Both the position numbers and the translations under genes were made by a program. The notes under the pieces are model-generated. The model worked only from the letters and a program-made list of their open reading frames with translations, ran no database searches and had not been told where the DNA came from. Shown here in pieces: positions 16,199 to 19,280 of a stretch of DNA of 62,666 nucleotides (positions are counted from its first letter, which is position 1; each line of letters opens with the position of its first letter). The DNA lies in the NCBI GenBank assembly GCA_030603385.1, contig JAUVXW010000027.1:1-62666 (forward strand). The letters are read 5' to 3'. This DNA comes from Promethearchaeota archaeon. GTDB lineage: Archaea; Asgardarchaeota; Lokiarchaeia; Sigyniarchaeales; SOKP01.

Positions 16199-16972
16199 TT
16201 ATTTTTTGGATATTCTCCTTTTTTGAGAATATAAAAAGAATCCTCGTATGATAAAACTCAGAGCAATTATGAAAGTTATTAAAAAGAAAACAGAGACAAT
16301 CATTGAAATTAAAAAGTCAGGATTTAAAATCCCAATAATACCAAAAATTGGGCATAGGGGGGCAATAATTAGAAAGAGGGTATAAATAGTTTTATCTTTT
16401 TCACCGAAATTGATATAAGTAGTAATATTAAACCATGCAATCAGAATCATAAAAATAGGGATTAAATATGAAGCAAATTCTGGAAAAGGATATGTGATAC
16501 CTCCCATTCCAAAAGCATAAAAATAATTGGCATAGAAATATACAATTAGTAGTAAAGCACTAATAGGAGTTGGCACTCCCGTGTATCCAGGAACTTCAGA
16601 TATATTGAATCGTGCTAATCTAAGTATTGCTCCAATAGCAAAGCAAATTGCACCAATTATTAGAATTATATCAAATAAACTATCAGTTTTAAAACTTTGG
16701 TAAGTTAATACTGCTGGTGCGATACCGAATGTTAATGAATCGCTTAATGAATCCAACTCCTTTCCTAATTGGTTCACTGTGTTTGTTTTACGAGCAATAT
16801 AACCATCAATCATATCTGTACCTGTTGAGATAGAAATTAAAAAAAAACCTAAAGAAAGTATGGCACGATCACCAATACATGCACAAATTAACGCAATTAT
16901 TCCAAGACTTGTTCCTATAAAAGTTATATAGTCTTTTAGTTTTAACAGCTGTGGAATCTTAATACTTGACAT
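16199..16972 (-). CDS. pssA: CDP-alcohol phosphatidyltransferase, PssA-like (archaetidylserine/phosphatidylserine synthase)
   Basis: DMIDGYIAR...GKELDSLSDSLTFGIAPA, LRLARFN, GVPTP. Confidence 0.8.
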   Translation of the reverse strand: MSSIKIPQLLKLKDYITFIGTSLGIIALICACIGDRAILSLGFFLISISTGTDMIDGYIARKTNTVNQLGKELDSLSDSLTFGIAPAVLTYQSFKTDSLFDIILIIGAICFAIGAILRLARFNISEVPGYTGVPTPISALLLIVYFYANYFYAFGMGGITYPFPEFASYLIPIFMILIAWFNITTYINFGEKDKTIYTLFLIIAPLCPIFGIIGILNPDFLISMIVSVFFLITFIIALSFIIRGFFLYSQKRRISKK

Positions 16973-17128: not shown

Positions 17129-17884
17129 ATGTATTGTAAGGATTGTGGTGCTGAAATAAAAGATCCGGAGCATCAGAAATTTTGCGAAAAGTGTGGTTCA
17201 ACAATATCCTCTAATCAGAGACAGAGTGAAGATGTTTCTACACCATCAACAACGGCACCATCAACAACGGCACCATCAACAACTCTGGGTTTTCAACCAT
17301 ATGATCGCCCTGGTGGATTGTTTGATATTAACCGCAGCTATTATATTCTCAAAGAGAAATACTGGGATATTTAAATCCTCTCCAGATTTAGACCCAAATG
17401 GGGTAGCGGTGATATCTTAGATGAAAATAATCAAGTAATAGGAAAGATGAAAAGAGTTATCTTAAGCATAAGACGCAGAGTCGAATTACTTGAATTAGAT
17501 GGCACTATTGCAGCTACTATTCACTCCAAGATTATATCAGCTCGAGGTGCGCAGGATTTAAAAGATCCGTATGGAAATATGATAGCAAGAATTAAAAAAA
17601 AAATAACTTCCATTTTCCGTCCGAAATTTTTCTTGGAAGATGTTAATGGCAGGAGATTTTTCGAAGCTCAAGGAAAATTTATGGGTTGGTCTTATAAAGT
17701 AACTGACATGTCTGGGAAATTAATCGCAGAAATTGAGAAAGCTGACAGGTGGAGAGATATTTTTCTTGGCGGATTATTGGATTATAAGGATACATATGCA
17801 TTAAGGATACTTGATAACGAGACAGATAGAAGGATCTTGCTAGGATTTGTGCTCTCTATTGATAATGTTCTTCATGACTACTGA
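17129..17884 (+). CDS. Zinc-ribbon + LURP-one/scramblase (tubby C-like) protein; predicted spliced product 241 aa (exons 17129-17368 and 17399-17884)
   Basis: Track ORFs 17129-17374 and 17447-17884 share one frame. Removing 17369-17398 gives YYILKEKYWD|WGSGDILDENNQVIGKMKR, a typical LURP-one first strand; C-terminal DTYAL...LGFVLSID. Confidence 0.8.
17241..17283 (+). repeat. 15-bp coding tandem repeat (PSTTA), about 2.9 copies
   Basis: caccatcaacaacgg caccatcaacaacgg caccatcaacaac. Confidence 0.9.
17369..17398 (+). other. Candidate 30-nt bulge-helix-bulge (BHB) mRNA intron
   Basis: UGGG(17363-66)/CCCA(17393-96) 4-bp helix; 3-nt bulges AU^A and AA^U; 8-bp intron stem UUUAAAUC/GAUUUAGA; contains in-frame TAA. 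Confidence 0.8.
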
Positions 17885-18119
17885 TTAATTCCAACATTTT
17901 TTTTTTAACAATTAAAAATGAATTGTTCTACCGAAAAATTATCAAAAAACAATGTACTTCATACATACTAATTTTGTTTTTTCGCTAAATTTTTATAAAT
18001 GTAATTTATATTTTCTTTAATTAACTCATTTGAAAAGAAATTTTGAATAGAATTGAATAAATTTTCATACACTTATTAAACTTATAAAAAATACCAATGA
18101 ATATCCACATTGTAGAAAA

Positions 18120-19280
18120 ATGACAGAATATGAAACATTTATGGTTTATGAACTGGATGATTCCGGAGATAAGAATAAAATAAGTATGGCAGAAGAAGAA
18201 CTTCAATCCAATCTGCATCCAGAACAAGTACTTGTAATAGTACGTGAAGATTTAAGAAGAATTTTCATTTGGAAGGGACCAAAATCCCCAGTTCGAAAGA
18301 GATTTATTAGTTCTAGAGTGGCTCAAGAACTCCAAGAAGAGTTAAGGAAGGATGCGAGTTATCACAGATGTAAAATCGTTTCCGTGGATGCCGGTGATGA
18401 ACCTATTGAATTTTTAAATGCGTTTCAATTAGAATCCATGGAAGTGACTGAACGATTGGCTGATATGCGATATATCCGGAACATAGAAAGGGAAAAAATG
18501 AATGAAGCAGTTATTACAGATGTTGCTCCAAAGGTGACTGAAACAAAAGGAGAAGAATATTTCTCTCCTGCTTTACAAGATACTACCAGCAATGTAGTTA
18601 CATCTTCCTTTACATCCAGTGTCTCTAAATCTACAAGTCTTCCTAAACCAAGACCTAGAACTCAATACCCGACGCAACCTATGACTAAAACCCCAGCTGG
18701 CCTATCAAAAGAGGACCAGGAAAAAATTAAAGATAGAATTCTAAAAAACGATATTACTGATAGTTATAAAAGACTAAATCTAATTTTAGGTCATACCCTA
18801 TTAGCCGCAGTTTCAAAAACAGCTAAAGTCTTCGGAGAAGAAGTTGTAGAAACTACGTGGGAACCTGTTAAAAAAGTTCCAAAAGATATCATTGAATTAG
18901 ATAATCATGTATTAAGGATATATTTTAATGAAACAAAAGGCATTGTAGAAGCTGTAGAAATATTAGAAAAAGAAGAAAAACCTAAGAGTGCTCCAAAAAA
19001 GATGACCACTGCAAAATCCACAGCAAAGTCATCCTCTTTAACTCCAATGCCAACCAAACCAACTTCAATGGATACACCCTCAATAAAGACTGCTTCTAAA
19101 AAAAAAACGGATTTTAATTCTATGACTGTCAAAGATCTTAAAAGTTACGCCGAAGAAAAAAAAATAGACTTACCTACTAATGCAAGAAAAGCCGAAATAA
19201 TAGAAATTTTAGAGAAATCTAAAGAGAATATACCAAGTGGTCGAAGACAATTACCAAAAATTCCTAGTAAGGACGATTAA
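18120..19280 (+). CDS. Gelsolin-like domain protein with low-complexity linkers and C-terminal Rho-N/SAP-like helical module
   Basis: VLVIVREDLRRIFIWKGPKS...VDAGDEPIEFLNAF (gelsolin repeat pattern); FNSMTVKDLKSYAEEKKI...KAEIIEIL. Confidence 0.7.
   Translation: MTEYETFMVYELDDSGDKNKISMAEEELQSNLHPEQVLVIVREDLRRIFIWKGPKSPVRKRFISSRVAQELQEELRKDASYHRCKIVSVDAGDEPIEFLNAFQLESMEVTERLADMRYIRNIEREKMNEAVITDVAPKVTETKGEEYFSPALQDTTSNVVTSSFTSSVSKSTSLPKPRPRTQYPTQPMTKTPAGLSKEDQEKIKDRILKNDITDSYKRLNLILGHTLLAAVSKTAKVFGEEVVETTWEPVKKVPKDIIELDNHVLRIYFNETKGIVEAVEILEKEEKPKSAPKKMTTAKSTAKSSSLTPMPTKPTSMDTPSIKTASKKKTDFNSMTVKDLKSYAEEKKIDLPTNARKAEIIEILEKSKENIPSGRRQLPKIPSKDD

What the first reader, a model, noticed from the sequence alone, without database searches (positions are those of the whole stretch)
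17324..17416. Candidate bulge-helix-bulge intron in a protein-coding gene of an Asgard archaeon
SEEN: ORFs 17129-17374 and 17447-17884 share one frame and are separated by a single TAA (17372-74). That stop lies in a 30-nt stretch, 17369-17398 (ATTTAAATCCTCTCCAGATTTAGACCCAAA). The RNA folds as follows: central 4-bp helix UGGG(17363-66)/CCCA(17393-96); 3-nt bulge AUA (17367-69); 8-bp intron stem UUUAAAUC(17370-77)/GAUUUAGA(17385-92) with a 7-nt loop; second 3-nt bulge AAU (17397-99) closed by C17362-G17400. The helix outside this second bulge is weak (relaxed BHB/BHL form), but the exons can also pair further out: GAUAUU-A-ACCGC (17324-35) with GCGGUGAUAUC (17406-16). KNOWN: archaeal splicing endonuclease (EndA) cuts after the second nucleotide of each bulge and RtcB ligates. 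The well-known archaeal mRNA example is the short cbf5 intron of crenarchaeotes. RESULT: these rule-based cuts (17368^17369 and 17398^17399) remove exactly 30 nt, delete the stop, and give KEKYWD|WGSGDILDENNQVIG, a clean LURP-one/scramblase strand. Structure and protein reading give the same boundaries independently. INFERENCE: this lineage splices non-cbf5 mRNAs with tRNA-type machinery, a possible prokaryotic parallel to non-spliceosomal HAC1/XBP1-type splicing. Automatic annotation would miss it as two ORFs or a pseudogene.
Basis: partly seen in the sequence, partly recalled or inferred. Interest (0 to 1): 0.96.

Follow-up and report, generated by a model that had tools for sequence, protein, structure and literature searches.

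The report
tRNA-type mini-intron in Asgard scramblase-like gene
A 30-base insert carrying a stop codon splits a healthy, conserved gene of a Loki-type Asgard archaeon; it has the shape, cut sites and evolutionary behaviour of an intron removed by the tRNA-splicing enzymes, a kind of mRNA splicing that published work confirms for only one other archaeal coding gene (cbf5).

Summary
Window 17369-17398 is a 30-nt insert with an in-frame TAA inside a Zn-ribbon + LURP-one/scramblase-like gene. All 19 aligned full-length homologues read YWD|WGSGD with a 10-residue gap exactly there.

In the same genus, 10 species carry a 30-nt insert at this site. Eight more carry a 27-30-nt insert 9 nt upstream, three of them not a multiple of 3.

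All 18 inserts share one design: a 4-nt exon strand, a 3-nt bulge, a roughly 9-bp stem, a 4-nt partner strand and a 3-nt bulge.
- The central helix pairs in 18 of 18.
- 12 of 14 pairs show compensatory changes.
- Cutting after the second bulge base restores KEKYWDWGSG in 18 of 18.
- Exons evolve under the same purifying selection as in intron-free orthologues.

The genome encodes two EndA paralogues and RtcB. I found the same design in three more of its genes: a MoxR-like ATPase, an AMP/thymidine-phosphorylase-like gene and uL11.

Two things are missing: RNA evidence (the metatranscriptome contigs did not cover this gene) and a strong helix closing the 3' bulge, so the motif is of the relaxed form.

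This scan has already noted such mini-introns on other DNA and elsewhere in this genome. The papers I searched report no such intron in Asgard coding genes.

The parts
17129..17368 (+). Exon 1 (80 codons): Zn-ribbon, Pro/Ser/Thr linker and the first strand of the LURP-one (LOR) barrel, ending ...KEKYWD
   Evidence: Zn_Ribbon_1, below cut-off; aligned to full-length homologues
17369..17398 (+). 30-nt BHB mini-intron, absent from intron-free orthologues; layout 1 + stem + loop + stem + 4 + 2
   Evidence: boundaries are unambiguous because shifting by 1 nt changes D or W
17372..17374 (+). In-frame TAA inside the intron; unspliced mRNA would stop after 81 residues
17399..17884 (+). Exon 2 (161 codons plus stop): the rest of the LOR/scramblase-like barrel, starting WGSGDILDENN
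   Evidence: (PF04525, E = 7.9e-8, profile positions 32-186)
17363..17366 (+). Central-helix 5' strand UGGG (exon 1)
   Evidence: 100% paired in 18 of 18
17393..17396 (+). Central-helix 3' strand CCCA (intron); CUCG, CUCA or CCUG in other species, all still pairing
17367..17369 (+). 5' bulge AU|A; predicted cut after 17368
   Evidence: unpaired in the minimum-energy fold; the cut rule is stated in PMC2738675
17397..17399 (+). 3' bulge AA|U; predicted cut after 17398; closed only by C17362-G17400 (relaxed side)
   Evidence: closing pair can form in 18 of 18; probability 0.002
17370..17392 (+). Intron hairpin: 8-bp stem 17370-77 with 17385-92 and a 7-nt loop (9 bp and 5 nt in most relatives)
   Evidence: 5 of 9 stem pairs with compensatory changes
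17324..17335 (+). 5' strand of the long-range exon-exon helix (GAUAUU-A-ACCGC)
   Evidence: 93.6% paired; CG/GC swap 5:5; probability 0.999
17406..17416 (+). 3' strand of the long-range exon-exon helix (GCGGUGAUAUC)

Best explanation

Proposed mechanism:
1. The last bases of exon 1 (UGGG) pair with the intron's CCCA to form the 4-bp central helix.
2. The rest of the intron is a hairpin.
3. A long-range exon-exon helix (17324-35 with 17406-16) holds the two splice sites together.
4. The archaeal splicing endonuclease cuts after the second base of each 3-nt bulge (17368|17369 and 17398|17399). This genome has two EndA paralogues, which fits the broad-specificity (alpha-beta)2 form.
5. RtcB joins the exons, giving an mRNA for a 241-aa protein.

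Shown here: the insert, its exact boundaries, the conserved and covarying structure, purifying selection on both exons, and the enzyme genes. Inferred: the cleavage and ligation themselves, and which enzymes carry them out.
For: 1. All 19 aligned homologues lack exactly these 10 codons, and the flanking residues W79, D80, W91 and G92 are invariant.
2. Of 130 genomes of the order with the gene, 18 have an insert, all in the window's genus. Ten are at this site (always 30 nt). Eight are at a second site 9 nt upstream, with lengths 30, 30, 30, 27, 30, 28, 29 and 29. Lengths that are not a multiple of 3 rule out read-through.
3. Structure counts support the fold.
   - Site-A alignment A2: 96.4% of cells paired, against 29-53% when partners are slid; 19 cells with double changes; 0 of 500 shuffles reach this.
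   - Both sites, A3: 93.9% paired; central helix and closing pair 100% in 18 of 18; 12 of 14 pairs with double changes.
4. The BHB cut rule gives an open frame reading KEKYWDWGSG in 18 of 18.
5. pN/pS is about 0.14 in intron-bearing genes and 0.16 in intron-free ones, on both sides of the insert, with synonymous sites saturated.
6. The 16 codons between the intron and the next ATG stay conserved, so they are translated.
7. The genome has two EndA paralogues and RtcB. Asgard EndA is reported as (alpha-beta)2 with the L1 loop that gives broad specificity (PMC5829648).
8. The same design occurs in three other genes of this genome.
   - MoxR-like AAA+ gene: 32 nt, DEIDKAD|IEFPNDLL, contiguous in about 40 congeners.
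   - AMP/thymidine-phosphorylase-like gene: 30 nt, DKHS|TGGVPGNK, interrupted in 21 of 48 matches across 46 genomes. Its central helix changes CAGU/GCUG to UAGC/GUUA along with synonymous exon changes.
   - uL11: 37 nt, UGGG/CUCA.
Against: There is no RNA-level evidence for this gene.

The helix closing the 3' bulge is a single pair with negligible predicted probability, and the strict BHB is 3 kcal/mol above the minimum-energy fold. Cleavage therefore depends on an enzyme that accepts relaxed motifs, which I did not test here.

The core hairpin alone is no more stable than shuffled sequence.

The species are related, so the counts across them are not independent events.
Confidence: 0.9

Rival explanations
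1. Programmed translational bypassing, as in phage T4 gene 60 or the yeast mitochondrial 'byps': the ribosome takes off before the hairpin and its stop codon, then lands 30 nt downstream, so the insert stays in the mRNA.
For: The insert is a short hairpin with a stop codon close to its 5' end. At the upstream site B, the insert is flanked by matching AAA codons that could serve as take-off and landing sites. Lengths that are not a multiple of 3 are compatible with hopping.
Against: At site A, the take-off codon GAU/GAC differs from the codon before the landing point (AAA, GAA) in 9 of 10 species.

The phosphorylase-gene insert lies inside a codon (AC|N), which hopping between matched codons does not explain.

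Bypassing does not require a 4-bp helix between exon and insert flanked by 3-nt bulges in a fixed register. That helix is kept in 18 of 18 and 12 of 12, with compensatory changes.
Confidence: 0.03
2. The gene is a pseudogene or a split gene. A small insertion broke it, and either nothing or two separate products are made: the 81-aa Zn-ribbon stub and a 145-aa fragment starting at ATG 17447.
For: Taken at face value, the DNA gives two ORFs. Automatic annotation would call them so.
Against: The insert persists in 18 species whose synonymous sites are saturated. Both exons nevertheless evolve at the same pN/pS as intact orthologues.

The 16 codons upstream of ATG 17447 are conserved.

The insert's structure covaries.

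The single-copy uL11 gene carries the same kind of insert.
Confidence: 0.02
3. The insert is removed from the RNA, but by something other than EndA and RtcB: another nuclease-ligase pair, or a small self-cleaving element.
For: No enzyme assay was done. The 3' side departs from the strict BHB.
Against: The anatomy and the register of the cuts match the EndA rule exactly at four sites in four genes. Thirty nucleotides is too short for known self-splicing introns. No Rfam family matches in the window.
Confidence: 0.04
4. Assembly or sequencing artefact in this metagenome-assembled genome.
For: The genome is a 58-contig assembly with about 7% estimated contamination.
Against: Independent assemblies of nine other species carry a homologous 30-nt insert at the same place.
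Confidence: 0.01

Closest known systems
BHB intron in the cbf5 (pseudouridine synthase) pre-mRNA of Crenarchaeota (Watanabe 2002; Yoshinari 2006; Yokobori 2009, PMC2738675)
   Same: A short BHB-type intron inside a coding sequence, often with a relaxed motif. The cuts fall between the second and third bulge residues. It is linked to a hetero-oligomeric EndA. It is gained and lost among related species.
   Different: A different gene (LOR/scramblase-like, not cbf5) and a different phylum (Asgard). Two alternative insertion sites lie 9 nt apart in one gene. The uniform ~30-nt hairpin design is shared with several other genes of the same genome. cbf5 splicing was confirmed by cDNA; splicing here was not.
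Archaeal tRNA and rRNA BHB introns cut by EndA and joined by RtcB
   Same: A 4-bp helix flanked by 3-nt bulges, with half of the motif built from exon sequence. The enzyme genes are present. Asgard tRNA genes are reported to be heavily interrupted (bioRxiv 10.64898/2026.10.13.758758).
   Different: The host RNA is an mRNA, so the exon half of the motif is also constrained by coding. Synonymous sites coevolve with the intron.
46-nt BHB intron in the 5' UTR of Haloferax volcanii HVO_1309 (PMC7714728)
   Same: An EndA substrate in an mRNA, shown there by circRNA-seq and in vitro cleavage.
   Different: It lies in the untranslated leader, not in the reading frame, so its removal is not needed to restore a protein.
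HAC1/XBP1 unconventional cytoplasmic splicing (IRE1 plus tRNA ligase/RtcB)
   Same: A non-spliceosomal cut-and-ligate removal of a short intron from an mRNA that changes the protein made, with an RtcB-type ligase in metazoa (from my own knowledge).
   Different: The nuclease is IRE1 acting on twin stem-loops, not EndA on a BHB, and splicing is stress-regulated. Nothing here shows regulation. This is an analogy, not homology of the intron.
Translational bypassing elements (T4 gene 60; Magnusiomyces mitochondrial byps)
   Same: Short, stop-containing hairpin inserts in otherwise intact genes (from my own knowledge).
   Different: Those need matched take-off and landing codons. That is not met at site A or in the phosphorylase gene.

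Membership tests
Archaeal BHB intron (EndA/RtcB-spliced) | 4-bp central helix between an exon strand and an intron strand, with a 3-nt bulge on the 5' side | tested here: met
   UGGG/CCCA plus AUA in the window. The central helix pairs in 18 of 18 orthologous inserts at two sites, and 3 of its 4 pairs show double changes.
Archaeal BHB intron (EndA/RtcB-spliced) | Second 3-nt bulge on the opposite strand, closed by an outer helix (strict hBHBh') | tested here: inconclusive
   The closing pair can form in 18 of 18. It is a single pair with a predicted probability of 0.002, and the minimum-energy fold pairs these bases elsewhere. A strong exon-exon helix lies further out. This is a relaxed form.
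Archaeal BHB intron (EndA/RtcB-spliced) | Cuts after the second base of each bulge give the functional junction | tested here: met
   The cuts restore YWD|WGSGD as in 19 of 19 homologues. 18 of 18 rule-spliced genes are open. The same holds for the MoxR-like, phosphorylase-like and uL11 genes.
Archaeal BHB intron (EndA/RtcB-spliced) | Structure maintained by compensatory change | tested here: met
   slid-partner controls give 21-65% pairing, against 94-98% observed.
Archaeal BHB intron (EndA/RtcB-spliced) | Host encodes the splicing endonuclease and an RtcB ligase | tested here: met
   Two PF01974 ORFs of about 200 aa (99 and 71 bits). One RtcB (558 bits). I did not examine the subunit type or the L1 loop here; they are taken from PMC5829648.
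Archaeal BHB intron (EndA/RtcB-spliced) | Spliced RNA or excised intron observed | not testable with these tools
cbf5 pre-mRNA intron family | Intron lies in cbf5, at the codon of the catalytic Asp, in Crenarchaeota | tested here: not met
   The host gene is Zn-ribbon + PF04525 in Promethearchaeota-type genomes. It works like the cbf5 intron but is not a member.
Programmed translational bypassing element | Matched take-off and landing codons flanking the gap | tested here: not met
   Site A: GAU/GAC against AAA or GAA in 9 of 10. The phosphorylase insert splits a codon. Site B does have AAA on both sides.
LURP-one-related (LOR, PF04525) / scramblase-like Tubby-C fold protein | Match to the family profile across the whole barrel | tested here: met
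   Exon 2 matches profile positions 32-186 of 187 at E = 7.9e-8, above the cut-off. 473 homologues carry PF04525, many with PF13240.

The most novel reading that the evidence does not exclude
These ~30-nt hairpin introns may be a rapidly turning-over, possibly mobile intron family that populates many protein-coding genes of this Asgard genus.

In this one gene, intron presence and site (A, B or none) are scattered over the gene tree no better than shuffled labels. Well-supported sister species differ. All three states occur within the window's own tight clade.

If so, the closest archaeal relatives of eukaryotes would have an active cycle of intron gain and loss in mRNAs that depends on the tRNA-splicing machinery. 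Splicing could also gate expression: the 81-aa stub against the 241-aa protein.
Probability: 0.35. Interest if true: 0.92.

Novelty: new member of a known kind. Interest (0 to 1): 0.82.

Why it matters
In the papers I could search, splicing of an archaeal coding sequence by the tRNA endonuclease is confirmed for one gene only (cbf5, Crenarchaeota). Introns in other protein genes were only 'predicted' (PMC2738675, PMC7714728).

Here an unrelated gene of an Asgard archaeon needs such splicing to be read. The comparative evidence is strong, and at least three more genes of the same genome share the design, among them the single-copy ribosomal protein uL11.

Three consequences follow.
- Gene callers mis-annotate these genes as split or as pseudogenes.
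- EndA and RtcB would be part of ordinary gene expression in this lineage.
- Interrupted protein genes and their gain and loss can now be studied in the prokaryotes closest to eukaryotes.

Tried and rejected
RNA evidence. The look-up of sequencing runs listed 14 DNA runs holding at least 54% of the sampled words, and four runs on record as RNA holding 8-17%. Contigs of those four (X15, X16, X18, X19) lie only on 18012-19216, the neighbouring gelsolin/HeH gene. Nothing lies on 17129-17884, so this says nothing for or against splicing.

Database scans. The Rfam scan and ARAGORN found nothing in the window.

Covariance model. Model R1, built from the 18 inserts, found only the window's own intron in the genome (E = 1e-8). 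All other hits had E above 0.4. The introns share a shape, not a sequence.

My own BHB plus ORF-fusion scan of the genome.
- A hairpin filter left 16, of which 2 are real.
- A relaxed pass gave 309 candidates and a filtered set of 16, of which 3 are real.
- False positives recognised by eye include vapB-vapC, purS-purQ and a gene upstream of RFC.
- The scan missed uL11 and the other introns noted earlier for this genome, so it undercounts.

Other items.
- The first dN/dS run was inflated by a one-codon indel. I repeated it on the indel-free part.
- The Arg-codon/Ser-codon covariation of the outer helix is also partly present in intron-free genes: all 5 pairs form in 8 of 24, against 9 of 10 at site A. 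It is only weak extra support.
- The stop reported inside the G021 match lies upstream of the gene and is not an intron.
- I considered a MITE-like DNA insertion and set it aside as an explanation for how the gene is read. There is no target-site duplication, and the gene is still under selection.

Full report
**1. The observation**

The sequence is as described. ORFs 17129-17374 and 17447-17884 are in one frame, and a single TAA at 17372-74 lies between them.

The minimum-energy fold of 17320-17420 contains these elements:
- the 4-bp helix UGGG 17363-66 with CCCA 17393-96;
- the 3-nt bulge AUA;
- the 8-bp stem 17370-77 with 17385-92 and its 7-nt loop;
- the outer helix 17324-35 with 17406-16.

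That fold is -25.4 kcal/mol with z = -2.4.

Two caveats apply. The core alone is not unusually stable (z = -0.44). The second bulge is not formed in the best fold: the closing pair C17362-G17400 has probability 0.002, and a fold forced to hold the BHB costs 3 kcal/mol more.

**2. What the gene is**

Exon 1 is a Zn-ribbon plus a Pro/Ser/Thr linker. The part after the stop matches LURP-one-related (PF04525) from profile position 32 onward, so the domain begins upstream of the stop.

A search with the read-through protein (TAA read as X) found 473 homologues, nearly all 230-245 aa. Sources name them LURP-one-related proteins of Promethearchaeota, Loki-, Hod- and Hermodarchaeota. The best is 241 aa against 251 for the read-through.

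In an alignment of 19 of them, every one reads YWD|WGSGD, with a 10-residue gap that equals window 17369-17398. W79, D80, W91 and G92 are invariant.

The boundaries are unambiguous at the DNA level. Moving the deletion by one base either way changes D or W.

**3. Relatives with the insert**

I searched 154 genomes of the order with the intact orthologue. The gene was found in 130. About 19 matches had stops inside, nearly all in the window's own genus. Fetching them and reading the junctions showed two sites.
- Site A, between YWD and WGS, in 10 species including the window. The insert is always 30 nt.
- Site B, 9 nt upstream between KEK and YWD, in 8 species. The lengths are 30, 30, 30, 27, 30, 28, 29 and 29 nt.

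No species has both. The stop reported in the one other-genus genome (G021) lies upstream of the gene. Inserts whose length is not a multiple of 3 cannot be tolerated by read-through.

**4. One design, with covariation**

All 18 inserts have the same layout:
- a 4-nt exon strand;
- a bulge of 2 exon bases plus 1 intron base;
- a roughly 9-bp stem with a roughly 5-nt loop;
- a 4-nt intron strand that pairs with the exon strand;
- a bulge of 2 intron bases plus 1 exon base.

On the site-A alignment (97 columns), 96.4% of cells pair, against 29-53% when partners are slid by 1-3 columns. Six pairs and 19 cells have changes on both sides, and no shuffle of 500 reaches the observed score. The stem switches between AUC/GAU, AGG/CCU and AGC/GCU. 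The exon strand UGGG is fixed by coding, and its partner varies as CCCA, CUCG, CUCA or CCUG, always pairing.

On the 43-column core of both sites, 93.9% of cells pair. The central helix and the closing pair form in 18 of 18, and 12 of 14 pairs show double changes.

These sequences are related, so the counts are not independent events. Even so, the hairpins at site B differ almost completely in sequence while keeping the shape.

**5. The cut rule and selection**

Applying the rule 'cut after the second base of each bulge' to all 18 genes gives open frames that read KEKYWDWGSG. The same rule is stated for cbf5 in PMC2738675.

Over the indel-free part of the gene, pN/pS is about 0.14 among site-A genes and among site-B genes, and 0.16 among intron-free genes. 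This holds on both sides of the insert, with synonymous sites saturated. So the insert has coexisted with a functional gene for a long time.

The 16 codons between the intron and the next in-frame ATG are conserved, so they are translated. That argues against two separate products.

**6. The machinery**

The genome has two ORFs of about 200 aa with the EndA catalytic domain and one RtcB. Asgard archaea are reported to have the (alpha-beta)2 EndA with the L1 insert that confers broad substrate range (PMC5829648). In the cbf5 work, relaxed motifs in mRNA were tied to that enzyme type.

ARAGORN finds only 18 tRNA genes in this 3.9-Mb genome. That fits the report that Asgard tRNA genes are heavily interrupted (bioRxiv 10.64898/2026.10.13.758758).

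**7. Other genes in this genome**

I wrote a scan of the whole genome for this motif, combined with a test that the cut fuses two open frames. It recovered the window's intron and two others.

- **MoxR-like AAA+ ATPase, G000 C26:16566-16597, minus strand, 32 nt.** It separates DEIDKAD from IEFPNDLL, with central helix GCAG/CUGU. About 40 congeners have a contiguous 285-288-aa frame. G098 and G099 share the insert.
- **AMP/thymidine-phosphorylase-like gene, G000 C10:126771-126800, 30 nt.** It sits inside the Thr codon of DKHS-T-GGVPGNK. Of 48 matches in 46 genomes, 21 have the short 340-aa frame and 21 a contiguous frame of 511-528 aa. The junctions are shown. Its central helix is CAGU/GCUG in four species and UAGC/GUUA (GCUA in one) in nine, so synonymous exon changes are matched by intron changes. 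98.1% of cells pair. Pfam places exon 1 in Glycos_trans_3N and exon 2 in Glycos_transf_3 plus PYNP_C.

A 37-nt insert at C41:68091-68127 (minus strand), with central helix UGGG/CUCA, has to be removed to read VTGGSASGGPPIGP.

**8. Rival explanations**

- **Translational bypassing.** This is the most serious rival, because the insert is a stop-containing hairpin and site B is flanked by AAA on both sides. But site A lacks matched codons in 9 of 10 species, the phosphorylase insert splits a codon, and bypassing does not predict a covarying 4-bp exon-intron helix with fixed 3-nt bulges.
- **Pseudogene or split gene.** Excluded by the selection data.
- **Assembly artefact.** Excluded by nine other independent assemblies with the same insert.
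- **Another RNA-level mechanism.** It cannot be excluded without an assay, but nothing points to one.

**9. Distribution**

On a tree of the spliced coding sequences, the states A, B and none need 16 changes, the same as shuffled labels. Strongly supported sister pairs differ: G069 none with G055 B, G094 none with G063 B, G092 none with G060 A, and G082 none with G068 A. The window's own tight clade contains all three states.

The site-A introns resemble one another, so repeated precise loss, allele exchange or mobility are all possible. I did not resolve this.

**10. RNA data**

No RNA evidence was obtained for this gene. Details are under Tried and rejected.

**11. Literature and earlier notes**

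Searches of the held library found no paper describing BHB introns in Asgard coding genes. A 2020 paper still lists cbf5 as the only mRNA case besides the Haloferax 5' UTR intron it reports, and a 2025 paper cites only the cbf5 work.

This scan has noted the same kind of mini-intron many times on other DNA: 846 notes fit the look-up words, in at least 126 genomes, and the eight shown all describe such introns. It has also noted them elsewhere in this genome, in histone, moxR, uL11, alba and other genes. One note reports environmental RNA showing exact removal in another genome; I did not check that.

**12. Verdict**

This is a new member of the known kind 'BHB intron in an archaeal pre-mRNA', in a new gene and a new phylum, with strong comparative evidence but no direct RNA evidence.

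Noticed in passing
L006, L008, L012, L034, L036, L041-L043 (orthologues of window 17129-17884): A second intron site lies 9 nt upstream of the window's site, between KEK and YWD. Its central helix is AAGG or AAAG with CUUU or CCUU, and the inserts are 27-30 nt. No species has both sites.
   Followed up: yes
Gene tree of 42 orthologues: Intron state (site A, site B, none) is scattered over the tree like shuffled labels, and well-supported sister species differ. This suggests fast gain and loss, allele exchange or mobility.
   Followed up: partly
G000 C26:16566-16597 (minus); locus L047:967-998: A 32-nt BHB mini-intron splits a MoxR-like AAA+ ATPase just after the Walker B motif (DEIDKAD|IEFPNDLL). 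G098 and G099 share it; about 40 congeners lack it.
   Followed up: yes
G000 C10:126771-126800 (+); locus L079:1272-1301: A 30-nt BHB mini-intron sits inside the Thr codon of the DKHSTGG motif of an AMP/thymidine-phosphorylase-like gene. It is present in 21 of the 48 matches found in the genus, with compensatory exon-intron changes.
   Followed up: yes
G000 C41:68091-68127 (minus): The only uL11 gene has a 37-nt insert with central helix UGGG/CUCA near its 5' end. Removing it restores VTGGSASGGPPIGP.
   Followed up: partly
whole genome G000: ARAGORN calls only 18 tRNA genes in a 3.9-Mb genome that is 94% complete. Many tRNA genes are probably hidden by non-canonical or multiple introns.
   Followed up: no
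window 18120-19280 (+): The neighbouring 386-aa gene has a C-terminal HeH/LEM-like motif (Pfam, below cut-off) and, by eye, an N-terminal gelsolin-like repeat. RNA-library contigs from four runs (three studies) lie on it at 90-99% identity, probably from relatives.
   Followed up: partly
window 16199-16972 (-): A CDP-alcohol phosphatidyltransferase (PssA-like) gene is divergently oriented to the scramblase-like gene, across a 156-bp spacer. The pair may act together on membrane lipids.
   Followed up: no
window about 17238-17285 (+): The linker of exon 1 holds a tandem PSTTA repeat whose copy number differs among close orthologues.
   Followed up: no
window 17324-17335 and 17406-17416: The third base of the Arg codon (C or G) and the Ser codon family (AGY or UCN) covary so that the exon-exon helix is kept. 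All 5 pairs form in 9 of 10 site-A genes, against 8 of 24 intron-free genes.
   Followed up: partly
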